Part shown: positions 486 to 47,706 of the stretch, piece by piece
Layout: every line of letters begins with the position of its first letter
Position numbering within the stretch: position 1 is the stretch's first letter
From: an uncultured Candidatus Binatia bacterium
Lineage (GTDB): Bacteria > Desulfobacterota > Binatia > Bin18
Assembly: GCA_965214755.1 (NCBI GenBank)
Contig: OZ243979.1
Location: 3,530,229 to 3,594,228, forward strand
Reading direction: 5' to 3'
Length of the DNA: 64,000 nucleotides
Position numbers and translations under genes: made by a program
Notes under the pieces: model-generated
The model's database searches: none
What the model saw: only the letters and a program-made list of their open reading frames with translations
What the model was told of the DNA's origin: nothing

Positions 486-1598
486 ATGCAGGTCCGTTTG
501 CTCACCCAATTCGAGACGCCGCCGGCGCAAAGCGTGGCCACGGACCGGTATTTTCTTCACACCGTGATTGAGACGCAGCTTCCAGTCCTGCGCGTTTGTA
601 CGTATCCAGATGATGTGCTGCTGCTGGGTCGGTATCATGCTGCCGGCGCACAAAGCGGAAACGTGTCAACATCTCGGGTCAGATTGGAGGACACGTTTCC
701 GCTTCTCAGACCAGACCCAGGTCTGACGATTATCCGGCGTCTGACTGGCGGACGAGCCTTTCCGAGTGGCAACGGGTTTGTCCAATTTTCACTCATCGTG
801 CCGCACCGTTCATTTTTCTTTTCCGCCGACCCGCAGCACATCGCGCCGTTTCAGATCCTTAACCGTTACGTCCGCGGGGTGCTGCACGGCCTGAAAACAG
901 GTGGAGTTGAAGTCTTTTATCCAGGCCAGGATTTTCTGACGGTCCGGCGGCTGCCGGTTGGCTGGCACTCTTTTGTGACAGAGGACAGCGGAGCCGTGCT
1001 GTATGAAGGAGGTGTGTTTGTCCAGCGGGATATGAGTCTCCTGCCCCATTTGCTTGACCGGGCGGACCCGCAGGGGACGCTTCCCTGCCAGCTCTTTATG
1101 CCGGATCAAGTCCACAATCTTGGCAAAGTCCTCGGACGATCTCTTGCACCGGACCAGGTCGTTCGTCTGCTCCGGAACGGCTTTACTCAGCAGTTCGGGC
1201 TGGAATGCCTCGACCAAGACCTCAATCCAAACGAGCGTGCGGCCATTCCGGGAAAACAGGAACGGTCTGACCCCATTCCGAACCGGCGTCCTCCACGCTC
1301 CGACCTCCCATACGTAGCAACGAGGCAAACTCCACTTGGAGAACTCCAGATTCGTTTCGCTCTCACTCCCGAGCGGACAATCGAGACGATCCAGTTCTCG
1401 GGCGACTTCATTGCCAATCCGGCCGGGATGCAAGCGTTGGAGCACAATCTCAAAGGTTGTCCACTGGAGAAAGCCGCACTCTGGCAGGTCATTGATGGGA
1501 CGTTTCTTGATCCAGAGCATTATCTGATCGGGGCGGGGAAGTTAGCCGACTTACCCGGATTGCTGCTAAGCGCTTCTCCGGTCCCGCCCGCCAGGTAG
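486..1598 (+). CDS. biotin/lipoate A/B protein ligase family protein (LplA-like) with long C-terminal extension
   Basis: ORF 411..1598. ATG 486 (MQVRLLTQFE...) preferred because family members start close to this segment. RRLTGGRAF..GNGF resembles the RRxSGGGAV.HD.GN ligase motif (from memory). Carries HPE copy 1 in frame. Confidence 0.6.
   Translation: MQVRLLTQFETPPAQSVATDRYFLHTVIETQLPVLRVCTYPDDVLLLGRYHAAGAQSGNVSTSRVRLEDTFPLLRPDPGLTIIRRLTGGRAFPSGNGFVQFSLIVPHRSFFFSADPQHIAPFQILNRYVRGVLHGLKTGGVEVFYPGQDFLTVRRLPVGWHSFVTEDSGAVLYEGGVFVQRDMSLLPHLLDRADPQGTLPCQLFMPDQVHNLGKVLGRSLAPDQVVRLLRNGFTQQFGLECLDQDLNPNERAAIPGKQERSDPIPNRRPPRSDLPYVATRQTPLGELQIRFALTPERTIETIQFSGDFIANPAGMQALEHNLKGCPLEKAALWQVIDGTFLDPEHYLIGAGKLADLPGLLLSASPVPPAR
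652..704 (+). repeat. HPE copy 1 (orientation A), intragenic and in frame
   Basis: aaagcggaaacgtgtcaacatctcgggtcagattggaggacacgtttccgctt. Arms AAGCGGAAACGTGTC / GACACGTTTCCGCTT pair perfectly over 15 bp. Two positions differ from consensus on both arms in a compensatory way. Confidence 0.85.
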
Positions 1599-1601
1599 GC
1601 T

Positions 1602-2486
1602 ATGGAATCTACTCAGAACACCACCCTCCAACTCGACCAGCTTGCAGCCGGACTGCTCGCCGACGATGACCACACACGACTTTCGGCGCTCGATCGACTT
1701 GAGGCGGAGAGAACACTAACGTCTCTCCCACAAGATGTGATGCGTAATCTTCTCGCGTGTCTGGGACATACGACGAAAAAAATACAACGCGGTGCGGCGA
1801 CCGTCCTCACCCGCTTTGCCTCCCGACAGCCTGAAATTATCGAGGCACTGACATACAGGCTGACGGACCCGAACCCGCGGCTGCGCTGGACCGCGGCTTT
1901 TACCCTCTCTCAGCTCGACCTGCCGAGCCCCTCGCCTCAAAGAGTAAACGTGTCCTCCAATCAGACACTACTGCTGGACACGTCTACTCTTCTTCCCGTT
2001 TTGATCGAGAACCTGGGACACCAGGAAAGTGACCTGCGCTGGGCCGCGGCAACCGCTGTCTTGCAGCTCGCCCAGCGCTGTTCTCAAGACGTTGCTCACG
2101 CCATGATCCGGCTTGTGCATACGGGTAATGCCGTGCAACGCCGCATGGCTCTCTACTGCCTGCGCGACCTGAAGCAAACGGATCAAGCGGCCCAGGAAGC
2201 CTATCTGACGAGCCTGAATGACGCGGACCCAATGGTTCGCCTCGGCGGTCTATCCTGTTTGGGTAAGCTCCGATTGACCAGCAGAGCAATTCGAGAAGCG
2301 ATTCTCCGGCTTTTAGAACACGACCCGGACATGGGTGTCCGTCGTTCGGCTGCCATGACCTGCGGACAGATAGGCGACACGGACACACATATCGTTGAGG
2401 CGTTACAGCGAACGGTTCAATCGGCTGACACCAGCCTCAGAAAAGCATCGACCGGAGCACTCAGGCAACTGCCGACCGACTCGTAA
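1602..2486 (+). CDS. HEAT/ARM-like repeat protein
   Basis: 294 aa ORF. Repeated motif of the type D.D..VR..AA.aLg.. (e.g. DPNPRLRWTAAFTLSQL, DADPMVRLGGLSCLGKL, DPDMGVRRSAAMTCGQIG). Carries HPE copy 2 in frame. Confidence 0.75.
   Translation: MESTQNTTLQLDQLAAGLLADDDHTRLSALDRLEAERTLTSLPQDVMRNLLACLGHTTKKIQRGAATVLTRFASRQPEIIEALTYRLTDPNPRLRWTAAFTLSQLDLPSPSPQRVNVSSNQTLLLDTSTLLPVLIENLGHQESDLRWAAATAVLQLAQRCSQDVAHAMIRLVHTGNAVQRRMALYCLRDLKQTDQAAQEAYLTSLNDADPMVRLGGLSCLGKLRLTSRAIREAILRLLEHDPDMGVRRSAAMTCGQIGDTDTHIVEALQRTVQSADTSLRKASTGALRQLPTDS
1940..1992 (-). repeat. HPE copy 2 (orientation B), intragenic and in frame
   Basis: aaagagtaaacgtgtcctccaatcagacactactgctggacacgtctactctt. Translated as [19 protein letters not shown] within the HEAT-repeat ORF. 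Confidence 0.85.
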
Positions 2487-8822: not shown

Positions 8823-9670
8823 CACCGGCCACACATTTTGCGGAACGAGAGCATTTGATCTGTGCCGTCTCGCGGGTCATTGAGGAAGAAAAAAGCTATT
8901 GGGTCGGTGGCGGCGGAGAACCCTTATACAGCATTTTACTGGCCCAGCGGCTGTACGCATCAGGCGTCCAATACATGACCGAGGATGGCGTGATTGCCCC
9001 GCAATCCATGATGCCCTGGGACCCCCTGATGACCATGGTGGCCTCACGCGCCGGCTATCGCGCGCTCCAGTGGGGGACCATGAATACGGCGGGCAATTTT
9101 GCCCAACTCGGCTATGTCGATGTCGGTATCCTCAACACTCTCCAGGTCGATCGCTACGGGAATATCAATTCCACCGTACTGGGAGAATACGAAGGTGGCC
9201 AGGGTCGGCGCTTTGGCGGACCGGGTGGTGCCGATACGATTGCCGCTCAGTGCTGGCGCACAATTCTGATGACCGACCAGCAAAAGCGGAAGTTCCCCGA
9301 ACGGGTGGATTTTATCTCATCCCCGGGCTTTCTCGACGGACCAGGCGCGCGCGAGGCAAACGGCCTGCCCCTGGGCACCGGTCCGTGGCGTGTGTTCACC
9401 CCGTGGGCGATGTTCGGCTATGAAGAAAAGTCGTGTGAGCTGATGCTTATGGCGATTTCCCCGTTTGTTACGATTGATATGGTCCTGGCAGAGATGTCCT
9501 TTGAGCCGAAGATGGCCCCGGCCATCGAAACGCTTGATCCACCCATGGAAGAAGAGTTGGAGATCATCCGCACCCAGCTTGATACGGATGGACAAACAAC
9601 GGGCCGCGGGCAGTGGGTCGAAAAACGGGACGGCAAATACGTCTTTGCCGAAACGCAGGGACGCGAGTAA
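8819..9670 (+). CDS. CoA-transferase subunit B
   Basis: ATG 8819 overlaps the stop of subunit A (ATGA). MTPATHFAEREHLICAVSRVI... is typical of B subunits. Confidence 0.75.
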   Translation: MTPATHFAEREHLICAVSRVIEEEKSYWVGGGGEPLYSILLAQRLYASGVQYMTEDGVIAPQSMMPWDPLMTMVASRAGYRALQWGTMNTAGNFAQLGYVDVGILNTLQVDRYGNINSTVLGEYEGGQGRRFGGPGGADTIAAQCWRTILMTDQQKRKFPERVDFISSPGFLDGPGAREANGLPLGTGPWRVFTPWAMFGYEEKSCELMLMAISPFVTIDMVLAEMSFEPKMAPAIETLDPPMEEELEIIRTQLDTDGQTTGRGQWVEKRDGKYVFAETQGRE

Positions 9671-12889: not shown

Positions 12890-14164
12890 TCAGACCCGCC
12901 GTTGGCGCTGGGTCTGCTGCGCCTGAGCCGCAAACTCAGACGGCTTCATAATGAGCGAGCCTTTGGATTCTTCCTGTTGGTGTTGCTTTTCTTCCGTGTA
13001 GTGCAGGCCGATGCTCTGCTGGACCAATCCTTCACAAAAGGGAATGCCACTGCCACTCGCCCCCTCTTTTTGGAGGGCAAGCGACACGGCCAGGGCGCGT
13101 TGGGCTGACGTTACACGTCCGGTTGCCGCAAAATACAGCGCCATTTCTTCCAAGCGCCGTGCGTAGACCTGACCGCTCTCCCCTGAGAACACTTCGGCAA
13201 TCGCTTGTTTGATGACATCGTCCACCCGGTCTTTTTGCTGGTGCTGATTCAGCACCAAGGGGCTCTCCTGCGCACTGGTTATCTTTTCGACATAGGGCTT
13301 GGCCTGTTCAGCGTCAAACACCCACCGCTGCATTTCCGGCTCTTCGGCAAGCTGGATGGATGTGGCCAGGAACGTTTCGTCGGCGGCGACCGTCTGACGA
13401 TCTACACTGTCCGGTAGTGGCACTGTTTGGGGTAAAGAGTGAACGTGTCCAGCTTCGTCGGAACGATTGGAGGACGCGTTTACTCTTTCTGTCGGCGTAG
13501 TTAAAACAAAAGACCGAAGCGCGGGGTAGGATTCGACCTCTTTTTTGTCCTGTTCCTTGGCCCGTTCATAGCCTTCCTGCATCAGAAAAGCACAATACTG
13601 CCACGACACCTGAACCATGGTCACGCCGCGGTGGTTGAGCAAGTCCTGAAGCACCTGACGCAGCGTTTTTCTCGATATTTCCGTGCCATCAATAGAGCGC
13701 ATCCCCTCGGGCTCGTTGATTAGCGCAGACAAGAAATGCAGCCCGCCGCCAACACGCGATTTCACTATCCAAACGAGGCGATCACCGCGCCCATCCATTG
13801 CGGACAGATACCCTTCCGGTTCAATCGGGGTGAGAATGGACTTGCCCGCTCCCTTTTGCGGTCGGTCGGTCTGTATCCCTTTTTGCGACAGGCGATAGAG
13901 GGCACGGCTAATCTCTTTACGTAAACGCTTATCAGTGGCCTGCTCTGTCCAATCCACTAGGAACTGGGCCGACTCTGCCGTCTGGACCTCGCCCAGTAAA
14001 GCGGCCAAAGCCACGTCGGCGTCAGCATCCTGTCCTATGCGCTCACGCAGGCTGGCAATATCCAGGCTACGGTCTTGTCCGGCAGAGGGCTGAATTCCCC
14101 ATTCTTCCAGCGCTTTTTTGCCTCGTGCCAGGCATGGGTCGTGCTTCGCACTCTTTTTCGCCAT
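12890..14164 (-). CDS. hypothetical protein (424 aa)
   Basis: Long ORF with protein-like composition. No family recognised. Carries HPE copy 5 in frame. Confidence 0.65.
   Translation of the reverse strand: MAKKSAKHDPCLARGKKALEEWGIQPSAGQDRSLDIASLRERIGQDADADVALAALLGEVQTAESAQFLVDWTEQATDKRLRKEISRALYRLSQKGIQTDRPQKGAGKSILTPIEPEGYLSAMDGRGDRLVWIVKSRVGGGLHFLSALINEPEGMRSIDGTEISRKTLRQVLQDLLNHRGVTMVQVSWQYCAFLMQEGYERAKEQDKKEVESYPALRSFVLTTPTERVNASSNRSDEAGHVHSLPQTVPLPDSVDRQTVAADETFLATSIQLAEEPEMQRWVFDAEQAKPYVEKITSAQESPLVLNQHQQKDRVDDVIKQAIAEVFSGESGQVYARRLEEMALYFAATGRVTSAQRALAVSLALQKEGASGSGIPFCEGLVQQSIGLHYTEEKQHQQEESKGSLIMKPSEFAAQAQQTQRQRRV
13434..13488 (+). repeat. HPE copy 5 (orientation A), intragenic and in frame
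   Basis: aaagagtgaacgtgtccagcttcgtcggaacgattggaggacgcgtttactcttt. Read on the minus strand as ERVNASSNRSDEAGHVHSL. Confidence 0.85.
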
Positions 14165-36351: not shown

Positions 36352-36756
36352 TTATTCCTCGGCGTCTTTCTGTTCTTCTTCAACAAAGTGTTCATATTCC
36401 TCGGCGGTCATGAGCGCGGCCAGCTCCTCGGGATCATTCATCTCCACCTGGACCAGCCAGGCGTCGCCGTACGGGTCTTCATTGATCGTCTCCGGCGTGT
36501 TCTGCAACTCAGTATTGACTTCTTTGACCGTACCACTCACCGGAGCGTAGATGTCAGACACGGCTTTGACCGATTCAACCACGCCAAAGGGCTCATCTTG
36601 GGTGAGCTGGGTATCAGGCTCGGGCAACTCAACAAACACGACATCCCCAAGCTGGTCTTGGGCGTAATCGGTGATGCCGATGGTTGCCAGATTATCCTCC
36701 TCCACCAAGACCCACTCGTGCTCCTGTGAGTAGCGTAACTCCCTTGGGGCTTCCAT
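36352..36756 (-). CDS. gcvH: glycine cleavage system H protein
   Basis: Lipoyl-lysine motif VESVKAVSDIYAPVSG. Confidence 0.95.
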   Translation of the reverse strand: MEAPRELRYSQEHEWVLVEEDNLATIGITDYAQDQLGDVVFVELPEPDTQLTQDEPFGVVESVKAVSDIYAPVSGTVKEVNTELQNTPETINEDPYGDAWLVQVEMNDPEELAALMTAEEYEHFVEEEQKDAEE

Positions 36757-36767
36757 AACCTCCTCCC

Positions 36768-37919
36768 TTACTTACTCCTCCGATAAAATGGCGGCTTGAT
36801 GACCGTCGCCGGAATATGGCGATTCCGGATCGCAACTGCCAGCGGTGTCCCAGAAGAGTAAACGTGCCCAGCTTTGTTGGTTTGGAGGGCGCGTTTACTC
36901 TTTTCGTCCGCGCACGACGGGGAAACATAGCCTAACGCAATACCAACGCCCAGCATGGGAGACTGGGTGCCACTCGTCACCACCCCGACCTGACGTTGAC
37001 TCTTTTGTTCACTCCAAATCGCATACCCCTGGCGAGGAATGCCAGCGCCTTCCATCCTGATCCCCACCAGGTGTTTTTCAATCCCATCAGCCTGCTGCTT
37101 GCGCAATGCCTCGGACCCAATAAAGGGGCCGGCCTCAAAATGGACGAGACGCTGTAAACCAGCCTCCAGCGGCGTGGTATGGGCATCAATATCGTTGCCA
37201 TATAAGAGATAGCCGGCCTCCAGGCGGAGCGTATCTCGTGCTCCCAGGCCGACGGGGACCAGGTTCGCCGCACCTCCTGCCTCGCCGCACGCCTGCCAGA
37301 TATGTTCAGCCCGCTCAGCCGGGACAAACAGCTCAAAGCCATCTTCCCCGGTATAGCCGGTCCGTGCCACAAGAGTCGGCACCCCGGTTACCTCCCCCTG
37401 GGCCGCCCAATAGCGACGAATGGCCGAAAGATCGTGTGATGTCAGCCGAGACAGAACCGTCTCCGCCTGCGGACCCTGGAGGGCGACCAATGCGTACTCG
37501 TCACTCCGGTCAATCACCTCAGCCCGGCCGCGATTGTGCTCTACCATCCACTCGTAGTCGGTCGTGCGGTTGGCGGCGTTCACACACACCAGATAGCGTT
37601 CCTCGGCCAGGCGATAGATAATGACGTCGTCGACTATGCCGCCATCGGCAAAACACATGACCGAGTACTGGGCCTGCATGATCCGTATGCGGGCAATATC
37701 GGTAACGAATAATTCCTGACAGACCTCATACGCCCGAGGACCGGCTATTTCGATCTCGCCCATATGGCTCAGATCGAACAGGCCGACCTGTGTCCGCACG
37801 GCCCGGTGTTCGGCAAGAATCCCGGTATACTGCACGGGCATCTGCCAGCCACCGAATTCAATCATGCGCGCCCCCACGGCACGATGCAGCTTATACAGCG
37901 GCGTTCGGTTGGCCCCCAT
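36768..37919 (-). CDS. gcvT: glycine cleavage system T protein (aminomethyltransferase) with a 17-codon HPE insertion near the C-terminus
   Basis: RTPLY..H...GA.M.EF.GW.MP..Y N-terminus, C-terminal ..V.IRN...PA.V.K.PF. Operon context. Confidence 0.9.
   Translation of the reverse strand: MGANRTPLYKLHRAVGARMIEFGGWQMPVQYTGILAEHRAVRTQVGLFDLSHMGEIEIAGPRAYEVCQELFVTDIARIRIMQAQYSVMCFADGGIVDDVIIYRLAEERYLVCVNAANRTTDYEWMVEHNRGRAEVIDRSDEYALVALQGPQAETVLSRLTSHDLSAIRRYWAAQGEVTGVPTLVARTGYTGEDGFELFVPAERAEHIWQACGEAGGAANLVPVGLGARDTLRLEAGYLLYGNDIDAHTTPLEAGLQRLVHFEAGPFIGSEALRKQQADGIEKHLVGIRMEGAGIPRQGYAIWSEQKSQRQVGVVTSGTQSPMLGVGIALGYVSPSCADEKSKRALQTNKAGHVYSSGTPLAVAIRNRHIPATVIKPPFYRRSK
36853..36903 (+). repeat. 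HPE copy 10 (orientation A), inside gcvT, exactly 51 bp
   Basis: gaagagtaaacgtgcccagctttgttggtttggagggcgcgtttactcttt. GCCC/GGGC replaces GTCC/GGAC (compensated). Confidence 0.85.
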
Positions 37920-37920
37920 A

Positions 37921-38790
37921 TCACATCCGAACGTTGGTCTGCCTTTCCGCAGCCTGGACAGTGTTGGCTAAGAGCATGGCAACAGTCAGCGGTCCGACCC
38001 CGCCTGGGACAGGAGAAATATAGGCGGCGCGTTCCTTGGCAATAGCGAACTCCACATCCCCTTTCAGCGACCCATCAGGACTCCGCGAGATGCCAACATC
38101 AATGACACCTGCTCCGTGTTTTATCCAGTCCCCTTTGATGGCGTCAATTTGCCCGACTGCGGCCACGACAAGATCGGCCTGGCGGATGTGGTCGGCGAGG
38201 TCGGCCGTGTGCGAGTGGCAGCTCGTCACGGTCGCGTTTCGCTCCAGTAACAGGAGAGCCAACGGTTTGCCAACCAGATTGCTGCGACCAACGACGACCG
38301 CGCGTTTGCCCTCGATAGCCATCCCGCTCTGTTCAATGAGATGCATCACCCCCAGCGGGGTGCAGGGGCGGAGCCCGGCCTGGCCTAATACCAGGCGGCC
38401 CTGATTCACCGGATGGAGCCCGTCAACGTCCTTGTCCGGCCGGATAACCTCAATCAGAGACGCCGAATCCAAATGATCCGGCAGCGGAAGTTGGAGCAGA
38501 ATACCGTTGACATCGGGACGTGCGTTGAGCCGATCAATGAGCGTAGTGACTTCGTCGGCTGATGCGGTCGCCGGCAGGCGATGGCCGAACGGCGCAATAC
38601 CGACCTCACGGCAGGCTTTTTCCTTGGCGTCAACATAGGCGCACGAGGCCGGGTCCTCGCCGATCAGAATCGTTGCCAGCCCCGGTTGCCAGTCGTGGCG
38701 GCCCTGCTGTTGCCGAATCTGCGCAATGCGTTCCTTCAGGCCCCGGCGGACTGTCTGCGCGTACTGCTTTCCATCAAGTATCACACCCAT
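37921..38790 (-). CDS. folD: bifunctional methylenetetrahydrofolate dehydrogenase/cyclohydrolase
   Basis: MGVILDGKQYA... N-terminus. PGGVGP.T near the C-terminus. Confidence 0.9.
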   Translation of the reverse strand: MGVILDGKQYAQTVRRGLKERIAQIRQQQGRHDWQPGLATILIGEDPASCAYVDAKEKACREVGIAPFGHRLPATASADEVTTLIDRLNARPDVNGILLQLPLPDHLDSASLIEVIRPDKDVDGLHPVNQGRLVLGQAGLRPCTPLGVMHLIEQSGMAIEGKRAVVVGRSNLVGKPLALLLLERNATVTSCHSHTADLADHIRQADLVVAAVGQIDAIKGDWIKHGAGVIDVGISRSPDGSLKGDVEFAIAKERAAYISPVPGGVGPLTVAMLLANTVQAAERQTNVRM

Positions 38791-38795
38791 GCTAC

Positions 38796-38851
38796 AAAGA
38801 GTAAACGTGTCCAGCTTTTTTATATCTCATTGGAGGACACGTTCACTCTTT
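38796..38851 (+). repeat. HPE copy 11 (orientation A on +, B in the sense of folD)
   Basis: aaagagtaaacgtgtccagcttttttatatctcattggaggacacgttcactcttt. Ends 5 nt from the folD ATG (38790-38788). Confidence 0.9.
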
Positions 38852-38905
38852 CGTCAGGATACGCGAAGCACTTCTCCAATGTAAAGCAAAGACGGGAGCG
38901 CTCGT

Positions 38906-40293: not shown

Positions 40294-43101
40294 CTAACCT
40301 AGCCTGCGGGATGGGGCGCTACGCCTCCGGCGTTTCGGCTTCGGCTTCACTGTCAACGGAGCCATCATCTTCTCATACAACCCAAACAGATGTTCCACCC
40401 GCTCGCGTTCGGAGGCAAAGCCGCCGGACCGGTACAGCCGGTCTACGGCCCGGTCAAGGGTGGTGTGGGCTTTGCGCAGGTTGGGCGGCATCAGGTCAGG
40501 GTCGTACAGGTCGGCCAGGGTTGCGCCCGGATGGACCGCACGGGCGTCGAGTACGGCTTGAGCCAATGGCTCCAACTTTGACAGGTCTGCGCCTTCGGGC
40601 GGGATGGGGAAGGTATTGTAGACCAAGCCGATGGAATAACGGTAATCGCTTTTCAGCCGCCCGCCGACATGACGCAGCCAAGCCATGTGCATGGCAGAGG
40701 TCAGTAACGCGAACAGCGGCTTCGTGGCGTTTTCAATGATACGGACCAGATTGCTCGGAATCACTGGCGGTTCCAACCACCCTATCGGTACATATTCCCG
40801 CCGCTCTGAACTGACTTCCGGGATAACCAGAAACGGCGCGGTCGGGATGACTTCGCCACCATACCGTGCCGGATAATCGGCAATCACCAAGGTACTTTTG
40901 CGCCTGCTCTGAGCGCGAAACGCCTTCACCGCCCGCATTCGCTTGACGACCTTCGGCAGCGCTTTGAGGTCCGCCGGGTCCGTGGCCTGAAGGGCCAGAA
41001 TCCAACGTTCGCCACCCCGGATGTATTCCCGCGCCCCAACGTAAGGGCGCAGGAACGGGGCCGCGTCCGGTTCCTCGGCAAGGAAGGTCGCGCGTTCGTC
41101 TCTGGTAAAAATGTAGTGGCCGCCATCTATGGGCATGGATCCGATAGTCAGCTTGGGGAAGCCATTGATCGGCTGCCTCTCCTCGCGTACCGTTTGGCGC
41201 GGGTCGGTCAAGCAGCCGGCATCGAACAGATAAGGCGACAGCACCGTGTGGTGCGTCTCCTCTGGGTCGCCATTGAGGGTGGGGTAGGAAAACAATCGCT
41301 TCTCGGATCGTGTATTTTCTCGTCGGTCCAACCCAAGAACGACGACATGCACATGCGCTTTGCCGCGTGCATCCGAGCCCCAGGCGAAGGTACGGTGCGC
41401 AAAGGCGATTTCCAGCTTGTATTCGTCGAAGAGGCGCGGCCATAGCAGGGCCACCTGTTCTCCTTGCGTGATTGAATTTGTGGACACAAACCCGATGCGC
41501 GTCTTCCCGGTCACGTATGCCCCGGCCTTCAGGAACCATGCGCCCACATAGTCAAGTGGAGATGCCGTCCTGCCATGAGGATTGGTCAGCCCCCGCATCT
41601 GCTCTCGCTGTTGCTTCGATTGATAGCTCTGTCCGCCGAACGGCGGATTGCCGAACACATACGAGCATTCTTCCGGCGGCAGCAGGCGTGCCCAGTCGGT
41701 TTCCAGAGCGTCGGCGTGCAGAATGTGGGGCGATTTCGTCAGCGGGATACGCACGAAGGTCTGGCCGAACTCCAGGCTGAGCCGGTTGTTCATGATGTGG
41801 TCCATCATCCACAGCGCAGTCTCGGCGATGTGGGTCGGGAACTCTCCGATTTCAATGCCGTAGCACTGGTCCACGTTGACGACCGACAGGGCCGCAGCGT
41901 CCAACTCGCCGGTCCCAACGTCACGATAGGCGTGCAATTCCTTTAAGACTGCGATCTCCAACTCGCGCAACTCGCGGTAGGCAATGATAAGAAAATTGCC
42001 GCAGCCGCAGGCGGGGTCGAGAAAACGGAGCGTCCCCAAACGCTGGTGAAAGCGATGCAGTTCCCGCCGTCGATGGGTGTCCTTGCGGGCCTTCAGCCGT
42101 GCGAACTCGGCCCGCAGGTCGTCCAGAAACAGTGGCTCGATTACCTTCAGGATGTTCTTCTCGGTGGTGTAGTGCGCACCCTGAGAGCGGCGCTGCGCGG
42201 GGTGCATGACCGATTGGAACAGCGCCCCGAAAATTGCCGGAGAGATAGCGGTCCAGTCGAACCGACAGGCGTCGAGCAATGCCCGCCGCATAGGAGCGTC
42301 CCAGTCGGGAATGCGCAGCGGTCCACGAAAAAGGTCGCCGTTCACGTAGGGAAAGCGAGCCAAGGCTTCGTCCAGAGCCTTTTGGCGTTTGTCCTCTGGC
42401 GTGTCGAGGACTTGAAAGAGCCGCGAGAGCCATAAGCCCAGGTCCGAACCGTCCTCGCGGCTGCGGGTTTCCAGGAAATCAAGAAAGATATCGCGCGGCT
42501 CGAAGATGCCGGTATCGTCGGCAAACAGGCAGAACACGGTACGCACGAGAAATCGTTCGAGGTCGTGGCCGGTGTAGCCGGACTGTTGGAGCGCGTCGTG
42601 CAGGTTGCCCATGAGTTCGGAGGCCTGAATGTTGACCGGGTCCTGATCCTTGAAGGTGCGCTTTTGCACGCCCAGGATAAAGCCGAACTTCTCGACATTG
42701 TGGGACAGGTCGGCCAAGGCGAAAACCGCGCGTTCCCGCTCGTCCAGGTCGTGCAATGCAAAGGTCTGAAAATCGCTGACCAGGATGTAGCGCGGCCGCT
42801 CTTGCTCGGGCAGGGCGTCGAAGTAGTCGCCGGCCTGTCCGTACGCCTGGGTCAGGTCGCGGCCAGCACTCTTTTGCTCAACCAGCAGGACACCCGGCCA
42901 GAACAGGTCGATGAAGCCCGAACGATTGTCCAGCTTCTTAATATGCTCTTCGTAGCGCGCCACCGAACGGCGCTGTACGCCGAAGACCTCGAAGAAGTCA
43001 TTATAGAAGCTCTGCGTCTCGCCTTTCTCATAGGTCGCACCGGCCCACTTCCGGGCAAACCCCGCAGCTCGGGCGCGTACTTCGTTCCAGGAGAGGCGCA
43101 T
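40294..43101 (-). CDS. MmeI-family type IIL (IIG) restriction-modification enzyme (fused endonuclease-methyltransferase-TRD)
   Basis: 935 aa. N-terminus MRLSWNEVRARAAGFARKWAGATYEKGETQSFYNDFFEVFGV...IDLFWPGVLLVEQKS is the characteristic MmeI-type nuclease head (from memory). NPPF motif (FGNPPFGG). Confidence 0.85.
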   Translation of the reverse strand: MRLSWNEVRARAAGFARKWAGATYEKGETQSFYNDFFEVFGVQRRSVARYEEHIKKLDNRSGFIDLFWPGVLLVEQKSAGRDLTQAYGQAGDYFDALPEQERPRYILVSDFQTFALHDLDERERAVFALADLSHNVEKFGFILGVQKRTFKDQDPVNIQASELMGNLHDALQQSGYTGHDLERFLVRTVFCLFADDTGIFEPRDIFLDFLETRSREDGSDLGLWLSRLFQVLDTPEDKRQKALDEALARFPYVNGDLFRGPLRIPDWDAPMRRALLDACRFDWTAISPAIFGALFQSVMHPAQRRSQGAHYTTEKNILKVIEPLFLDDLRAEFARLKARKDTHRRRELHRFHQRLGTLRFLDPACGCGNFLIIAYRELRELEIAVLKELHAYRDVGTGELDAAALSVVNVDQCYGIEIGEFPTHIAETALWMMDHIMNNRLSLEFGQTFVRIPLTKSPHILHADALETDWARLLPPEECSYVFGNPPFGGQSYQSKQQREQMRGLTNPHGRTASPLDYVGAWFLKAGAYVTGKTRIGFVSTNSITQGEQVALLWPRLFDEYKLEIAFAHRTFAWGSDARGKAHVHVVVLGLDRRENTRSEKRLFSYPTLNGDPEETHHTVLSPYLFDAGCLTDPRQTVREERQPINGFPKLTIGSMPIDGGHYIFTRDERATFLAEEPDAAPFLRPYVGAREYIRGGERWILALQATDPADLKALPKVVKRMRAVKAFRAQSRRKSTLVIADYPARYGGEVIPTAPFLVIPEVSSERREYVPIGWLEPPVIPSNLVRIIENATKPLFALLTSAMHMAWLRHVGGRLKSDYRYSIGLVYNTFPIPPEGADLSKLEPLAQAVLDARAVHPGATLADLYDPDLMPPNLRKAHTTLDRAVDRLYRSGGFASERERVEHLFGLYEKMMAPLTVKPKPKRRRRSAPSRRLG

Positions 43102-44246: not shown

Positions 44247-45914
44247 TCACCTCTCATACGGTCCCAAGAATCGTTCGCCGTTGAAGTGGATGAGATGCGT
44301 AGGCGCGTCAGCACACCAGACTTCGGTTTCCCAGGAAAGCTCTCCAAGGTAACGTGCCATGACGCCGCGATTGGGAAAGGCCGTTACATAGACCAGACCG
44401 GGCGTTGCGTCAGAAAACAATTTACCTAGTTCGTTATGACGCTTCGCATCAACGGGGCCGTGGCTGGTGACAGATTCAACAAGAAGCAACCAATCCTTTT
44501 TCCTGAAATACAGCACCACGTCCGGCATTTTTCCGTGCTGATCGACAGTAACTCCCAGCTCGGCAAGGCGTTGTTCCTGAAAATACCCGATCTTGTCTCC
44601 GGTATCGCCAACGTAAGTGACCTCGGCGGCTGGCGCGAAGCGTGGAGCAAATTCGGTGATGATGTCTTTGATCAACTCGGAATGCGCGCCCGGTGTTAAG
44701 TTGGTCTCCTGACCCTCGGCCACCTGAACCGGAATCATCTGCATCTTACGATGCTTCGCCCATTTTGCCGCGAGCGTTTCCCGCCCTGCGAAATATTCGT
44801 CGAGGACTGCCTGCCATGCATCAGTCCCGAACGTCTGGATAACGGCGAAAGCTTCTGCGCTGATCTGGTAGCAGGCTTTCGGGTTGTTGACGGGTCGATC
44901 TGGCTGATCGGGATTGTAAAGAGCGATGCCCGCTTCAACGAATTGATGTATAGTTTGCCGTCGGAAAGTCTCACGGGTGTTCGGGGCATATTCACGACCG
45001 TAATGCTCGCGGCAATACTCCATGATGGGCGTAATCCCCATGAGCGGTTTTTCTACCGTATCCCACGCGCCGCCTGGCTTGAGATTGAGAAGGGCTAACA
45101 AGGTGAGTGCGGATCGCTCGTTCTGTTGCCCCCTTGGCATACCAAGCGCCCGAACGATTTGAAGCGCCTCCTCGATCTTCTGTTGCGCTAAGAGTGGGTT
45201 TTCTTCATCTGTCATGAGTGCAAGCTCTCCCTCGATAAGATCGTCAATCTCCTGCCGGGAGAGTGCGGTCTTGCTCGTCTTTTTCCCGAGACGTTCCAGC
45301 GTCTCCCGAGTTGGATAGTGAAGCGAACGTAAATCCGCGGCGTTCACCTGGGTATGGCCGTTGAACTGACGGAAATAGTGATCAACAAGACTGCTGTTCA
45401 GATATACGCTCAGCCCATGCGCCAAGGATCGGGACACCCTTTTCTGGTTGGCGTGAAAAACATTGAGGTGATTCTCGAAACCCACCATCTCGCCCGGCAG
45501 CTCAGACGAGTAGACGGATGCAACGACGCGTCGCTTTTCTTCCTTTGAGGTGAAACGCCGTGTCACGACGAAGGGGCCTTCATTCGGATAGAGCCACCTG
45601 CGACTTTTCTCCGTCACAACAATGGCGTTTGGCTTCTTCATTGTCTTTGGCCATTCCAGCCGTCCGCCCTGAAAATGCGCAGCGTACAGCAGCGGCACAG
45701 TGCCTTCGCCCGGCCCGGCGCGTAAATCCTGACACAGCCGAAAATCGACGACCGGGCCAGTCGATACCTCCATACCCAAATCACTGAGCGATGCCGTGAA
45801 GTGGGCCATCCGATTGACGATTCCCTGTTCGAAGTCGGTCGAAGCGATATGCACAACCTTGTCAGGATCATCAGGCCCAATAACCGACGCGGAATCGACG
45901 ATCCGCTGTGTCAT
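44247..45914 (-). CDS. C-terminal (TRD) half of an N6-adenine DNA methyltransferase fused to a BsuBI/PstI-family restriction endonuclease
   Basis: First ~235 aa (..STGPVVDFR...FENHLNVF...) look like the target-recognition part of Eco57I/PstI-type methylases. The last ~320 aa (QQNERSALTLLALLNLKPG...LVESVTSHGPVD...) match my memory of the BsuBI_PstI_RE domains. Confidence 0.7.
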   Translation of the reverse strand: MTQRIVDSASVIGPDDPDKVVHIASTDFEQGIVNRMAHFTASLSDLGMEVSTGPVVDFRLCQDLRAGPGEGTVPLLYAAHFQGGRLEWPKTMKKPNAIVVTEKSRRWLYPNEGPFVVTRRFTSKEEKRRVVASVYSSELPGEMVGFENHLNVFHANQKRVSRSLAHGLSVYLNSSLVDHYFRQFNGHTQVNAADLRSLHYPTRETLERLGKKTSKTALSRQEIDDLIEGELALMTDEENPLLAQQKIEEALQIVRALGMPRGQQNERSALTLLALLNLKPGGAWDTVEKPLMGITPIMEYCREHYGREYAPNTRETFRRQTIHQFVEAGIALYNPDQPDRPVNNPKACYQISAEAFAVIQTFGTDAWQAVLDEYFAGRETLAAKWAKHRKMQMIPVQVAEGQETNLTPGAHSELIKDIITEFAPRFAPAAEVTYVGDTGDKIGYFQEQRLAELGVTVDQHGKMPDVVLYFRKKDWLLLVESVTSHGPVDAKRHNELGKLFSDATPGLVYVTAFPNRGVMARYLGELSWETEVWCADAPTHLIHFNGERFLGPYER

Positions 45915-46813
45915 GTCCTCAGCGACGTAAGCCTGAGATTCAGATCGAACGCGAAAGCCCCGACTCCGCTTGTCGTGATCCGAACTTGCGTGCCCGCGAC
46001 TCCCTTCACTGCGTGAATGATGATGTTTTCCTGCAGCACCTCATCGCCCTTAAAGGCAGCATCCCGTTGCTCGAAAACGTGGATATGCCGCAAGTTCATC
46101 AGCGAGAAGAACTGCTCTCGAAACGGTTTGAAGTACGGCCCGTTACAAAATGATCGGGGCACGATAGCGACCATTTCGCCGCCCTCGGTAAGACGCAGGG
46201 CGGCAAGAAACAGAAATCCGGTATAGAGGTTTGACGTTTCAATGCCCGCACGGCGGAGCGCTGATCGATGAGCCGATGCGGAACGAATCTTCTTGTACGG
46301 AGGATTCATGATCACATGCGTAAACGGCTTGTCCTCTGACTCTGCGCTCTGGAACAAACCTTCCTGCGAACCATGCGTATAGGACAGGATGAAGTCATCC
46401 GCATGGATCGTACCGTTCACATCGATCCCGACCGTCCGGCCCTGAATTTCAGCCTCATTCAGGGTTGATTCGAGATAGTCGATTAACACTGGTTCGATCT
46501 CATAACAGTCCAGCGAAACGGATTGAGGCTTCTTTGTTTCGTGTGAACACCGCTCGATAAAAGCAGCGGACCGGGAACCGATTCCCGCTCCGGGATCAAG
46601 CAGGCATACCTCACCGGAAACAATATCGAATAAACTCACCATGAAACGGCCAATAGAGACCGGGGTCATGTATTGGCCAAGGCCTGACCGTCTCTTGGGG
46701 TCGAGTTGTAAGGAAGCAGCAATGCGGTAGAAATCGGCGGTTTCGGCGCAATCCGGCTGCATCACATAGTTCCCGTATTTGAGGCCGGGATCTCCAATGC
46801 GGGATGGAAGCAT
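45911..46813 (-). CDS. N-terminal catalytic half of an N6-adenine DNA methyltransferase (gamma-type, NPPY)
   Basis: GQYMTPVSIGRFMV, LLDPGAGIGS (AdoMet site), VIMNPPYKK. ATG 46813 preferred over 46873 to avoid overlap with the neighbouring gene. Stop overlaps the next ORF start (ATGA at 45911-45914). Confidence 0.75.
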   Translation of the reverse strand: MLPSRIGDPGLKYGNYVMQPDCAETADFYRIAASLQLDPKRRSGLGQYMTPVSIGRFMVSLFDIVSGEVCLLDPGAGIGSRSAAFIERCSHETKKPQSVSLDCYEIEPVLIDYLESTLNEAEIQGRTVGIDVNGTIHADDFILSYTHGSQEGLFQSAESEDKPFTHVIMNPPYKKIRSASAHRSALRRAGIETSNLYTGFLFLAALRLTEGGEMVAIVPRSFCNGPYFKPFREQFFSLMNLRHIHVFEQRDAAFKGDEVLQENIIIHAVKGVAGTQVRITTSGVGAFAFDLNLRLTSLRT

Positions 46814-46824
46814 CTCTTCAACAA

Positions 46825-47706
46825 TCACACCCCTTGCGCCCGGTCCACGATTGGGGCCACGCGGTCGAGCCATTCGTGCGCTTTCCCGTCTGCAATCTCG
46901 GTACCCATCTGTTGGTTGAACACCACGACTCCGGCCACGCCGGCATCCTGATAGCGCTTCAGCGTATCCGCGGACAGGTTGCCGTTGTCCGGATCGATGA
47001 TAGGCGTCACCGGCACGCTGTCAGGGTCACGGCCCGCCTCTGTGACGAGCTTTCGGAGCTCTTCGATCTCGGCCCCCAACGCCTGTGGGTTCCACGCCAG
47101 CGGAAACCAGCCGTCGTAGGAACGCGCGACACGTTCCAGGGCTTTGGGACCGTGCGCGCCAAGTAACACCGGCGGACCGTTTGGCTGCGCCGGCTTGGGC
47201 TCGCAGCGGACCGCCGGGAATTGAACCAGTTCTCCGTCATAACCGGTCTCTTTCTGCGTCCACAGCAACCGCATGGCCTCGACGGTCTCGCGTAGGCGTC
47301 TCCAGCGCAGCCGAAATGAGGTCCCCATGAGCTCGGTTTCTTCACGCAGCCAGCCGCCGCCAATGCCCAAGATCACCCGGCCGTTGGAATACAAATCAAG
47401 GCTGGCAATCACCTTGGCCGTCATGAGCGGGTCACGTTCGGGCAGCAGACAAATCCCGGTGCCGAGTTTGATGCGATTCGTCACCCCGGCCGCTACGGTC
47501 AGCGCAATAAACGGATCAGCCCAACGATTATAGTGCTCCGGTAGAACGCCATCGTCCCCCCCAGGAAACGGCGTCGTATGCCCAACCGGGATGACCGGGT
47601 GTTCAGGAATCCATAGAGAGTCAAACCCCAGCGCCTCTGCCCTGCGGGCCACCGCGCTCAGGTCTCCGCTCTCCGCCGTCGCTGTCACCAGTACGCCAAC
47701 GTCCAT
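46825..47706 (-). CDS. LLM-class F420-dependent oxidoreductase
   Basis: ATG 47706 preceded by AAGGAGGGG. MDVGVLV...AEALGFDSLWIPEHP... Confidence 0.85.
   Translation of the reverse strand: MDVGVLVTATAESGDLSAVARRAEALGFDSLWIPEHPVIPVGHTTPFPGGDDGVLPEHYNRWADPFIALTVAAGVTNRIKLGTGICLLPERDPLMTAKVIASLDLYSNGRVILGIGGGWLREETELMGTSFRLRWRRLRETVEAMRLLWTQKETGYDGELVQFPAVRCEPKPAQPNGPPVLLGAHGPKALERVARSYDGWFPLAWNPQALGAEIEELRKLVTEAGRDPDSVPVTPIIDPDNGNLSADTLKRYQDAGVAGVVVFNQQMGTEIADGKAHEWLDRVAPIVDRAQGV

What the first reader, a model, noticed from the sequence alone, without database searches (positions are those of the whole stretch)
36853..36903. Exactly 17-codon HPE insertion inside the conserved C-terminus of the glycine cleavage T protein
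The gcvT frame reads ...GYVSPSCADE-KSKRALQTNKAGHVYSS-GTPLAVAIRNRHIPATVIKPPFYRR. The 51-bp hairpin accounts for the middle segment. From memory of T-protein alignments (E. coli ends ...[35 protein letters not shown]), the flanks align contiguously in homologues, so this looks like a true insertion into an essential-pathway enzyme that keeps the frame. It is the cleanest test case for whether HPE peptides are tolerated in the protein or somehow removed.
Basis: partly seen in the sequence, partly recalled or inferred. Interest (0 to 1): 0.8.

Follow-up and report, generated by a model that had tools for sequence, protein, structure and literature searches.

The report
Hairpin repeat inserted in-frame in gcvT
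A 51-base copy of a small palindromic repeat that litters this Candidatus Binatia genome sits in frame inside the glycine-cleavage T-protein gene. It adds 17 amino acids in a loop of an otherwise intact enzyme, much as the "Rickettsia palindromic elements" do, so it is a real and neat example of a known kind of event.

Summary
gcvT (36768-37919, minus strand, 383 aa) carries a 51-nt hairpin: 16-nt arms at 36854-36869 and 36887-36902, with a 17-nt loop. It is a copy of a ~54-nt palindromic repeat with 12 copies in the window. Fourteen close Binatia orthologues and all distant GcvTs lack exactly these 17 codons. Nine other genomes or contigs carry the same insert.

The insert is stop-free and a multiple of three. 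An AlphaFold model (pLDDT 92) has only one segment below pLDDT 50, and it lies inside the insert. The rest superposes on T-protein crystal structures (TM 0.94). The gene stays under purifying selection (dN/dS 0.12-0.24). The insert is therefore most likely translated and tolerated as a loop excursion.

The same family sits in frame in other genes, and about a quarter of the copies surveyed lie in long ORFs. That makes it an analogue of Rickettsia palindromic elements, in a new phylum and much smaller.

Two points are less ordinary. The insert's nucleotides are far more conserved than the surrounding gene, while its few changes are nearly all amino-acid-changing. Filled alleles are also scattered across the tree. 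Whether the cause is nucleotide-level selection, recombination or precise excision is unresolved.

The parts
36768..37919 (-). [quoted passage not shown] It is 383 aa and hosts the insertion.
   Evidence: ORF. Pfam GCV_T and GCV_T_C. PDB hits 1yx2 and 1woo. The AF2 model superposes on T-protein crystals with TM 0.94. The operon order is folD-gcvT-gcvH-gcvPA-gcvPB.
36854..36904 (-). The inserted 51-nt element. On the sense strand it reads AAAAGAGTAAACGCGCCCTCCAAACCAACAAAGCTGGGCACGTTTACTCTT and lies between GGACG and CTGGG. It encodes residues 339-355, EKSKRALQTNKAGHVYS.
   Evidence: Filled versus empty DNA alignment. Protein alignment. nhmmer family hit 36851-36903, E = 4e-14.
36887..36902 (-). 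The 5' arm of the hairpin in the mRNA sense (AAGAGTAAACGCGCCC).
   Evidence: Inverted repeat I1 and RNA fold.
36870..36886 (-). The 17-nt loop, shorter than in any other copy of the family. This shortening gives the 51-nt length.
   Evidence: Core lengths run from 49 to 54 with a mode of 52, and this copy is 49.
36854..36869 (-). The 3' arm of the hairpin in the mRNA sense (GGGCACGTTTACTCTT).
36990..37006 (-). A second site in gcvT. The sequence AAAAGAGTCAACGTCAG resembles a lone left arm of the element. It lies in a 3-codon indel (codons for EQKSQRQ) that the 363-aa orthologues lack. In L007 this very place holds a full in-frame element.
   Evidence: A 1-mismatch hit at 36994-37004. The alignment shows a 9-nt indel. 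The L007 insertion encodes KSKPANSIPPCPPYQGGRRGDGARVYSS.
38795..38852 (-). An intergenic copy of the same family in the leader of the folD-gcvT operon. It lies between a promoter-like site and the folD start. It is present at the same place in most related genomes and absent in eight.
   Evidence: This is a clean filled/empty pair with no target-site duplication.
13433..13489 (-). Another in-frame copy of the family, in a 424-aa ORF of unknown function (12890-14164). Its peptide is ERVNASSNRSDEAGHVHSL.
   Evidence: The orthologous copy in L038 differs at 3 of 55 nt, while the flanks differ by 12-18%.
1938..1993 (+). Another in-frame copy, in a HEAT-repeat protein (1602-2486). Its peptide is [19 protein letters not shown].
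   Evidence: The orthologous copy in L034 differs at 2 of 54 nt, while the flanks differ by 14-16%.
652..705 (-). A diverged copy lying in frame in an LplA-like lipoate-protein ligase ORF (411-1598, + strand). Its peptide is QSGNVSTSRVRLEDTF.
36352..36756 (-). gcvH, the next gene of the operon. It starts 12 nt after the gcvT stop codon.
   Evidence: and synteny with Pfam GCV_H in the related loci.
37921..38790 (-). folD, the gene upstream of gcvT in the operon.
   Evidence: and Pfam THF_DHG_CYH on the syntenic genes.

Best explanation
**What it is**
- A small non-autonomous palindromic repeat is dispersed through these Candidatus Binatia genomes. It is about 54 nt long, with 17-bp arms AAAGAGTAAACGTGTCC / GGACACGTTTACTCTTT and an asymmetric loop.
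- It lies between genes and inside them.
- One copy landed once in gcvT, without a target-site duplication. The site is the loop between two strands of the C-terminal beta-barrel domain.
- The surviving copy is 51 nt and stop-free.

**How it works**
- The copy stays in the mRNA and is translated.
- GcvT therefore carries 17 extra, hydrophilic, probably disordered residues (EKSKRALQTNKAGHVYS) that project from an otherwise normal fold.
- The enzyme keeps working.
- In behaviour this matches a Rickettsia palindromic element (RPE).

**Shown**
- It is an insertion and a member of the repeat family.
- The frame is kept.
- The gene is under purifying selection.
- The rest of the fold is predicted with confidence.
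- The stem co-varies across the family.

**Inferred**
- Translation of the insert.
- Surface exposure of the extra residues.
- A single origin of the filled allele.
- The cause of its scattered distribution: homologous recombination between co-occurring lineages, or precise excision.
For: **It is an insertion of a repeat-family copy**
- There is an exact 17-codon gap in 14 related loci and in 15 close protein clusters.
- The empty site reads GAC-(AGT/GCT/GGT)-GGG. The filled site reads GACG[51 nt]CTGGG.
- nhmmer scores the copy at E = 4e-14. The window holds 12 copies, and the window plus 20 metagenome loci (212 kb) hold 48.

**Single origin**
- All 10 filled alleles share this copy's peculiar features: GCGCCC/GGGCAC arms and a 17-nt loop.

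**It is translated and tolerated**
- It is a multiple of three and stop-free in all 10 alleles.
- dN/dS of the gene is 0.12-0.24 at dS 0.27-0.36 between most lineage pairs. The 27 codons after the insert are conserved.
- The AF2 model has pLDDT 92 and pTM 0.88. Its only segment below pLDDT 50 is residues 341-353.
- The model matches 1woo and 1yx2 at TM 0.94 and rmsd 1.8-1.9 Å.
- The operon is intact.

**The family does this elsewhere**
- In-frame copies lie in an LplA-like ligase, a HEAT protein, an unknown ORF, two TonB receptors, a UvrD-like helicase and an AddB-like nuclease.
- A second, independent in-frame insertion sits in another loop of the same gcvT domain in L007.

**No target-site duplication**
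- The clean filled/empty pair upstream of folD shows none.

**The hairpin matters**
- On the 17-bp stem, 95% of cells are paired.
- Seven pairs show compensatory changes, and 0 of 500 shuffles reach that number.

**Precedent**
- RPEs insert in frame into conserved genes.
- RPE-bearing guanylate kinase is translated and active (PMC2229807; PMC10969869).
Against: - There are no transcript or protein data, so translation of the 17 residues is inferred.
- Surface exposure and distance from the H-protein and folate sites could not be measured, because no coordinates were available. Domain 3 of the T protein does take part in H-protein handling (PMC7733448), so some functional cost or effect is possible.
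- Filled alleles are not monophyletic in the gcvT tree, the folD tree or the 4.2-kb downstream tree (bootstrap 0/200). A simple 'one insertion, vertical descent' history is therefore not enough.
- The insert is much more conserved than a tolerated neutral passenger should be. Third codon positions vary at 1 of 17 sites, against 43% in the rest of the gene. Four divergent lineages have identical inserts.
- A divergent second gcvT elsewhere in the genome was not excluded.
Confidence: 0.8

Rival explanations
1. The hairpin is not just tolerated. It has been co-opted, or is actively maintained, as a nucleic-acid element inside the coding sequence. It could be a protein-binding DNA site like a REP/BIME, or an mRNA structure that affects processing, stability or ribosome pacing in the folD-gcvTHP transcript. 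On this view the 17 residues are a by-product. This is compatible with the main explanation and differs only on why the insert persists.
For: - Synonymous positions in the insert are the most conserved in the whole gene. Every 17-codon window with at most 1 variable third position overlaps the insert.
- Seven of the 8 substitutions fall at first or second codon positions.
- The immediate flanks are variable, at 7 of 18 sites.
- Two other orthologous in-ORF copies differ by 4-5%, while their flanks differ by 12-18%.
- The stem co-varies across the family.
- The copy upstream of folD keeps its arms across lineages while its loop varies.
Against: - In L001 the insert has decayed. It carries 5 changes and folds at -16.8 against -23.9 kcal/mol. 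That is no better than random sets of 5 substitutions, 39% of which fold at least as well.
- L025-L027 carry a change that breaks a pair.
- Recent exchange of the allele would also give low diversity, and distances between filled alleles dip mildly around the site.
- Gene conversion among family copies could keep near-consensus copies alike.
- There is no terminator-like or Rfam signal.
Confidence: 0.25
2. The scattered distribution reflects an element that is still mobile. It would be lost repeatedly by precise excision, or re-inserted at the same site, in the manner of single-strand 'peel-and-paste' transposons. The alternative is recombination between lineages.
For: - Insertion leaves no target-site duplication.
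- A single 51-nt deletion of the filled allele would give GAC-GCT-GGG, which is exactly what L013, L016 and L017 have.
- Filled and empty alleles share polymorphisms 4-9 nt from the junction.
- The folD-upstream copy and the 24-nt element are scattered in the same way.
Against: - Most empty alleles read AGT or GGT. These cannot arise by one precise excision.
- No transposase was seen among 30 window ORFs.
- All filled alleles carry the same idiosyncratic copy. Independent insertions from other copies are therefore excluded.
Confidence: 0.2
3. The 51 nt are removed from the message or skipped by the ribosome, by splicing-like excision or by programmed translational bypass as in T4 gene 60 or the mitochondrial 'byp' elements. 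The mature protein would then lack the 17 residues.
For: - The segment is a stable hairpin of about the size of known bypass gaps (about 50 nt; from my own knowledge).
- The peptide itself shows no sign of selection.
Against: - The length is an exact multiple of three, there is no in-frame stop, and both hold in all 10 alleles. This is what selection on read-through predicts, and it is unnecessary for excision or bypass.
- There is no stop codon after a take-off codon, and no matching landing codon in frame (sequence).
- No intron or ribozyme family is detected.
- The other in-ORF copies also keep the host frame.
Confidence: 0.03
4. The insertion has inactivated gcvT, leaving a pseudogene or a truncated function.
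For: None directly. The insert lies in a conserved domain, and domain 3 contacts the H protein.
Against: - The reading frame is open over the full length in 10 genomes.
- dN/dS is 0.12-0.24.
- The C-terminal 27 codons are conserved.
- The fold is confidently predicted.
- The gene is embedded in an intact folD-gcvTHP operon.
Confidence: 0.03
5. The 17 residues are a native, lineage-specific loop of GcvT rather than an insertion of repeat DNA.
For: Ten orthologues share it.
Against: - Equally close orthologues lack exactly these codons.
- The DNA is a recognisable member of a dispersed repeat family with the same arms.
Confidence: 0.01

Closest known systems
Rickettsia palindromic elements (RPE; Ogata et al. 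2000 and 2002, as reviewed in PMC2229807 and PMC10969869)
   Same: - Both are dispersed palindromic repeats found between genes and, often, in frame inside conserved housekeeping genes.
- Both add a peptide while the host gene stays functional.
- Both form a long stem-loop with inverted termini.
- Neither shows an obvious TA target duplication.
   Different: - RPEs are 105-146 bp and specific to Rickettsia. This family is 51-55 nt (17-18 codons) and occurs in Candidatus Binatia.
- Sequence relatedness was not tested and is not expected.
- Here the element's nucleotides are more conserved than the host gene, and filled alleles are scattered among lineages.
REP/BIME elements and their RAYT transposases (PMC3733652)
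   Same: - Both are short, high-copy imperfect palindromes.
- Both show stem covariation and no target duplication.
- Both have possible host roles in mRNA stability or DNA-protein binding.
   Different: - REPs are 20-40 nt, extragenic, and carry a GTAG or CGTC head.
- This element is longer and starts AAAGAGTAAACG.
- About a quarter of its copies lie inside ORFs.
- No RAYT gene was looked for genome-wide.
Bacterial MITEs (Correia/NEMIS, ERIC, RUP, Nezha, Chunjie)
   Same: - Both are non-autonomous, have terminal inverted repeats and give stem-loop transcripts.
- Some MITEs are fused in frame to ORFs (PMC2229807).
   Different: - MITEs are usually 100-400 bp and have target-site duplications, often TA.
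- Neither of the two filled/empty comparisons here shows a duplication.
- No parent IS was found.
Translational-bypass inserts (T4 gene 60 coding gap; mitochondrial byp elements of Magnusiomyces). Cited from my own knowledge.
   Same: Both are hairpin-forming inserts of about 50 nt inside essential coding sequences.
   Different: - Bypass elements break the frame or contain stops, and need matching take-off and landing codons.
- This insert is in frame and stop-free, so no bypass is needed.

Membership tests
GcvT (glycine cleavage T protein), the host gene | GCV_T folate-binding domain plus GCV_T_C barrel, the T-protein fold, and a gcv operon context | tested here: met
   Pfam 1e-95 and 3.6e-19. 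PDB 1yx2 at 2.5e-97. AF2 model TM 0.94 to 1woo and 1yx2. folD-gcvT-gcvH-gcvPA-gcvPB order.
RPE-like protein-coding palindromic elements (by behaviour) | A dispersed palindromic repeat with many copies, a sizeable fraction of them in frame in conserved ORFs | tested here: met
   There are 48 copies in 212 kb. About 12 lie in long ORFs, at least 8 of them robustly so. These include gcvT, LplA-like, HEAT, TonB-receptor, UvrD-like and AddB-like genes.
RPE (the Rickettsia families RPE-1 to RPE-10 themselves) | Length 105-146 bp, restriction to Rickettsia, and sequence membership in an RPE family | tested here: not met
   The element is 51-55 nt and the host is Candidatus Binatia. Direct sequence comparison with RPEs was not done.
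RPE-like protein-coding palindromic elements (by behaviour) | The inserted peptide is retained in the mRNA and the protein, and the enzyme remains active | not testable with these tools
   Only indirect evidence is available: the frame and stop-free state are conserved, dN/dS is 0.12-0.24, and the predicted fold is intact.
MITE (derived from a DDE transposon) | Terminal inverted repeats | tested here: met
   Arms of 16-17 nt.
MITE (derived from a DDE transposon) | Target-site duplication flanking the element | tested here: not met
   The folD-upstream filled/empty pair reads TTGAC|...|TGTAGC with no duplication. The gcvT junction GACG|...|CTGGG shows none either. Flank logos show no repeat.
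MITE (derived from a DDE transposon) | A parent insertion sequence with matching termini | not tested
   No transposase was found among 30 window ORFs scanned. Whole genomes were not searched.
REP / RAYT system | A 20-40 nt extragenic palindrome with a GTAG or CGTC head | tested here: not met
   The consensus AAAGAGTAAACGTGTCC...GGACACGTTTACTCTTT is about 54 nt. It has no GTAG or CGTC head, and many copies are intragenic. The definition comes from the PMC3733652 abstract.
REP / RAYT system | An associated RAYT (Y1 transposase) gene flanked by the repeats | not tested
   This needs a search of complete Binatia chromosomes such as OY729511.1 and OY282457.1.
IS200/IS605-type palindrome-associated elements | Insertion without duplication, next to a fixed short target motif | tested here: inconclusive
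   There is no duplication. The two resolved sites share GAC|G on the left, but 35 copies show no conserved flank beyond A/G at -1 and T/C at +1.
Intron, intein or translational-bypass insert | Ribozyme or intron structure, intein splicing motifs, or a take-off/landing codon pair with an in-frame stop | tested here: not met
   There are no Rfam hits in the window. Seventeen residues are far too few for an intein. There is no stop and no matching landing codon.

The most novel reading that the evidence does not exclude
The hairpin repeats of these Binatia genomes are not decaying selfish passengers. They would be actively maintained nucleic-acid elements, kept by selection for a DNA- or RNA-level function or by a site-faithful copy/excision mechanism. 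They are conserved better than the genes that host them. Proteins such as GcvT simply carry the encoded 17-18 residues as a tolerated cost. The filled gcvT allele would then spread or persist because of the hairpin, not in spite of it.
Probability: 0.25. Interest if true: 0.7.

Novelty: new member of a known kind. Interest (0 to 1): 0.5.

Why it matters
**Reach of the phenomenon.** In-frame colonisation of conserved enzymes by palindromic repeats is not a peculiarity of Rickettsia. It also occurs in a large-genome, marine and sponge-associated lineage, Candidatus Binatia, and with an element of only 17-18 codons.

**A natural experiment in gcvT.**
- Filled and empty alleles coexist among close relatives.
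- A second insertion site lies in the same domain.
- A further 24-nt in-frame element also occurs in the gene.
- This gives a tractable system for asking how much loop insertion a central metabolic enzyme tolerates.

**An open question about persistence.** The element is conserved more strongly than its host gene. That raises the question of whether such repeats persist because of a function at the nucleic-acid level.

**A practical point.** These inserts will create spurious 'lineage-specific loops' in protein alignments and structure predictions for these genomes.

Tried and rejected
- **Rfam** at gathering thresholds over the whole window gave no hit.
- **Terminator and promoter scan** around the hairpin: the hairpin is not terminator-like.
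- **Viral contigs:** there are no copies of the element.
- **First AF2 run** with a shallow 35-sequence alignment gave a poor model (pLDDT 70.9). I replaced it with the 120-sequence run.
- **Orientation bias of in-ORF copies:** the idea was avoidance of a GGAGG motif in the sense strand. Among independent events the split is 7 to 2, which is not significant, so I dropped it.
- **Apparent compensatory change in the L001 allele:** its hairpin is no more stable than random sets of 5 substitutions (39% are as stable or more), so it is not evidence of selection.
- **Target-site motif or duplication:** none was found.
- **Monophyly of filled alleles:** rejected.
- **Long hitch-hiking tract around the insert:** only a mild dip was seen, partly caused by the junction codon itself.
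- **Mapping the site onto the T-H complex 3A8I:** not possible. No coordinates were available, and the 2010 JBC paper is not held.
- **Transposase in the window:** none was found among 30 ORFs.
Full report
**1.

The minus-strand ORF at 36768-37919 encodes a 383-aa protein. It has the two Pfam domains of the glycine cleavage T protein, GCV_T at 1e-95 and GCV_T_C at 3.6e-19. Its best solved relatives are the T proteins of B. subtilis, T. maritima, E. coli and human.

It sits in the order folD-gcvT-gcvH-gcvPA-gcvPB (synteny).

Inside it, 36854-36869 and 36887-36902 form a 16-nt inverted repeat that is 94% complementary, with 17 nt between the arms. As RNA, the 76-nt stretch around it folds at -29.9 kcal/mol. 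The z-score is -4.4, and none of 200 shuffles folds as well.

The arm motif AAGAGTAAACG (up to 1 mismatch) occurs 23 times in the window. Chance expectation is 0.54.

A profile of the repeat finds 12 copies in the window, all in the first 39 kb.

**2. It is a true insertion of 17 codons**

The closest 23 protein clusters in the large protein collection are 81-92% identical to the query. They fall into two classes.
- Eight clusters carry EKSKRALQT[N/D/G]KAGH[V/I]YS.
- Fifteen have a gap of exactly 17 columns between ...SPSCAD and SGTPLAVAIR.

All more distant GcvTs aligned have the same gap. B. subtilis GcvT aligns with 17 fewer residues at this place.

At DNA level, 14 related Candidatus Binatia loci read GAC-(AGT, GCT or GGT)-GGG at the site. 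The window and nine other loci (L001-L003, L024-L029) instead read GACG-AAAAGAGTAAACGCGCCCTCCAAACCAACAAAGCTGGGCACGTTTACTCTT-CTGGG. That is a net gain of 51 nt.

The simplest junction is an insertion between G and C of a GAC-GCT-GGG allele, which still exists in L013, L016 and L017. In window coordinates the insert is 36854-36904, give or take 1-2 nt.

The filled allele is seen in HiFi assemblies, a Tara scaffold and a Logan contig, so it is not an assembly artefact.

**3. The organism and the repeat family**

All close loci are 'Candidatus Binatia bacterium' genomes recovered from metagenomes. Their chromosomes are 3.9-5.2 Mb.

The repeat consensus is AAAGAGTAAACGTGTCC-TCCAAT...(variable)...GCT-GGACACGTTTACTCTTT.
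- The core length is 49-54 nt, with a mode of 52. With the terminal A and T this is 54 nt, or 18 codons.
- The gcvT copy is the shortest (49-nt core), and that gives its 51 nt.

On 36 copies, the 17-bp stem is paired in 95% of cells. Seven pairs show changes on both sides, and 0 of 500 shuffles reach that number. Stem integrity is therefore maintained copy by copy.

A clean filled/empty comparison for the copy in the folD leader reads TTGAC|element|TGTAGC against TTGAC|TGTAGC. It shows no target-site duplication. The flanks of 35 copies show no conserved target beyond the terminal A and T.

No Rfam family matches. There are no copies in viral contigs. No transposase was found among 30 window ORFs.

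**4. The family often sits in frame in genes**

Four of the 12 copies in the window lie inside ORFs without breaking them:
- gcvT;
- an LplA-like lipoate-protein ligase (411-1598);
- a HEAT-repeat protein (1602-2486);
- a 424-aa ORF of unknown function (12890-14164).

A metagenome scan for perfect-armed copies gave 20 further loci. Across the window and these loci there are 48 copies, and about 12 lie within long ORFs. These include two TonB-dependent receptors, a UvrD-like helicase and an AddB-like nuclease. A few others near N-termini may lie upstream of the true start codon.

In L007, gcvT lacks the 17-codon insert. It carries a different, longer in-frame element with the same termini in another loop of the same C-terminal domain. 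The peptide is KSKPANSIPPCPPYQGGRRGDGARVYSS.

At that second site the window reads AAAAGAGTCAACGTCAG, which looks like a lone left arm. It lies within a 9-nt indel that the 363-aa orthologues lack.

This behaviour matches that described for Rickettsia palindromic elements. Those insert in frame into many conserved genes, and the RPE-bearing guanylate kinase is translated and active (PMC2229807; PMC10969869).

**5. Is the peptide tolerated or removed?**

Nothing here tests this directly, but every indirect line points to read-through and tolerance.
- **Frame.** All ten filled alleles keep a length that is a multiple of three and have no stop. That constraint would not exist if the segment were spliced out or bypassed.
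- **Selection on the gene.** Among filled alleles, dN/dS is 0.12-0.24 at dS 0.27-0.36 between most lineage pairs. The 27 codons after the insert remain conserved.
- **Structure.** With a 120-sequence alignment, AlphaFold2 gives mean pLDDT 92.0 and pTM 0.88.
  - The only segment below pLDDT 50 is residues 341-353, inside the insert.
  - It lies between strand 326-332 plus a short helix at 334-337 and strand 359-364 of the C-terminal barrel.
  - The model superposes on T-protein crystal structures at target-normalised TM 0.94 and rmsd 1.8-1.9 Å.
- **Peptide character.** The peptide is hydrophilic.

I could not measure the distance to the H-protein or folate sites. Domain 3 does move against the H protein in simulations (PMC7733448), so a functional effect is not excluded.

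**6. What is unusual**

(a) *The insert is the most conserved stretch of the gene at 'silent' positions.*
- Third codon positions vary at 1 of 17 sites (0 of 17 without L001). In the rest of the gene the figure is 43%.
- Every 17-codon window with at most one variable third position overlaps the insert.
- Seven of the eight variable sites are at first or second codon positions.
- L002, L003, L028 and L029 come from four different clades yet have identical inserts.
- The 18 nt just upstream vary at 7 sites.
- Two other orthologous in-ORF copies show the same pattern. They differ at 2 of 54 and 3 of 55 nt, while their flanks differ by 12-18%.

(b) *Filled alleles are not monophyletic.*
- This holds in trees of gcvT, of folD and of 4.2 kb downstream. 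There are at least four filled groups interspersed with empty ones, and bootstrap support for a filled/empty split is 0 of 200.
- The folD-leader copy, a 3-codon indel and a separate 24-nt element are scattered in the same way.

(c) *A single 51-nt deletion of the filled allele can only leave TCT, GCT, GAT or GAA at the junction.* GCT alleles exist, but most empty alleles read AGT or GGT.

Because all filled alleles share this copy's idiosyncrasies, they descend from one insertion. The scatter then needs one of three things: homologous exchange between co-occurring lineages, repeated precise loss, or both. The low diversity needs either selection at the nucleotide level or recent exchange of a very short tract.

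A mild local dip in distance among filled alleles around the site is compatible with some exchange (0.08, against 0.11 among empty alleles). It is too weak to explain the contrast with the immediate flanks.

Against a universal constraint, the L001 allele has five changes and a weaker hairpin (-16.8 against -23.9 kcal/mol). That is no better than random sets of 5 substitutions, 39% of which fold at least as well.

**7. Verdict**

- The feature is a new family member of a known kind of event: a protein-coding palindromic repeat, RPE-like in behaviour.
- It is not a member of the RPE families themselves, nor of REP or classical MITE families as defined. It differs in size, head motif, intragenic location and lack of target duplication.
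- The open and more interesting question is why the hairpin is conserved better than its host gene, and how the allele came to be scattered across lineages.

**8. Caveats**
- The trees are neighbour-joining on short loci with midpoint rooting.
- Counts of in-ORF copies rest on ORF length and Pfam hits, not on curated gene models.
- The metagenome loci were selected for perfect arms, which biases the family sample towards consensus copies.
- A second, divergent gcvT elsewhere in the genome was not excluded.

Noticed in passing
window 36990-37006 (-); L007:6901-6995; L015 at the same site: A second element site in gcvT, about 45 codons upstream of the main insert. L007 carries a full in-frame element with an 82-nt core. 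Its termini are those of the family, and a C-rich/G-rich palindrome is nested inside it. The window and L015 keep only a look-alike of the left arm (AAAAGAGTCAACGT / AAAAGAGCAAACGTG) within a 9-nt indel that the 363-aa orthologues lack. This could be a remnant of an old insertion or a preferred target.
   Followed up: partly
L001:6660-6681, L028:5500-5521 (in gcvT); L001, L003 and L010 at 4966-4987, L013:5002-5023, L024 and L027 at 9002-9023, L026:2070-2091 (alaDH-folD spacer); absent from the window: A separate 24-nt element, CTTCGACC(A/G)GGCTCAGGACAGGC, is present or absent in the alaDH-folD spacer. The same 24 nt lie in frame in gcvT of some lineages as the 8-residue insert PSTGLRTG. It is scattered across the tree, like the hairpin.
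   Followed up: partly
window 38795-38852: A hairpin copy lies between a promoter-like site (TTTACA...TATCCT, 38885-38856) and the folD start. It would therefore sit at the very 5' end of the folD-gcvTHP mRNA. Its arms are conserved across lineages while its loop varies. It is absent in 8 related loci.
   Followed up: partly
window 652-705, 1938-1993, 13433-13489: Three more copies of the family lie in frame inside ORFs: an LplA-like lipoate-protein ligase, a HEAT-repeat protein and an unknown 424-aa ORF. The LplA-like case means that two genes of the glycine-cleavage and lipoylation system in this window carry such inserts.
   Followed up: partly
window 1939-1992 vs L034:4961-5014; window 13434-13488 vs L038:3712-3766: Orthologous element copies differ by 4-5%, while the 300 nt of host gene on either side differ by 12-18%. 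The repeats evolve more slowly than the genes they sit in.
   Followed up: yes
window 40294-43101 and 44247-46873; L024, L025, L027 and L028 at the corresponding place: There is a variable restriction-modification island next to the alanine dehydrogenase gene. The window has both an MmeI-type enzyme and a BsuBI/PstI endonuclease with an Eco57I-type methylase. Related genomes have one or the other, or a SIR2-like or DUF2806 gene.
   Followed up: partly
proteins P0027, P0028 (GcvT relatives); L011 gcvT 3' end; P0024: There are other small length changes in GcvT relatives. P0027 and P0028 have tandem PSQGG repeats in a loop of the folate-binding domain. In L011 the C-terminus is replaced after a C-rich stretch (FYPPCSTPPVRGVEQGG). 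P0024 is truncated after GYVFPIMRGRKE.
   Followed up: no
L031:856-2217: A related metagenome contig encodes a PmoB/AmoB-like 'Monooxygenase_B' protein. A hairpin copy lies at or just upstream of its N-terminus.
   Followed up: no
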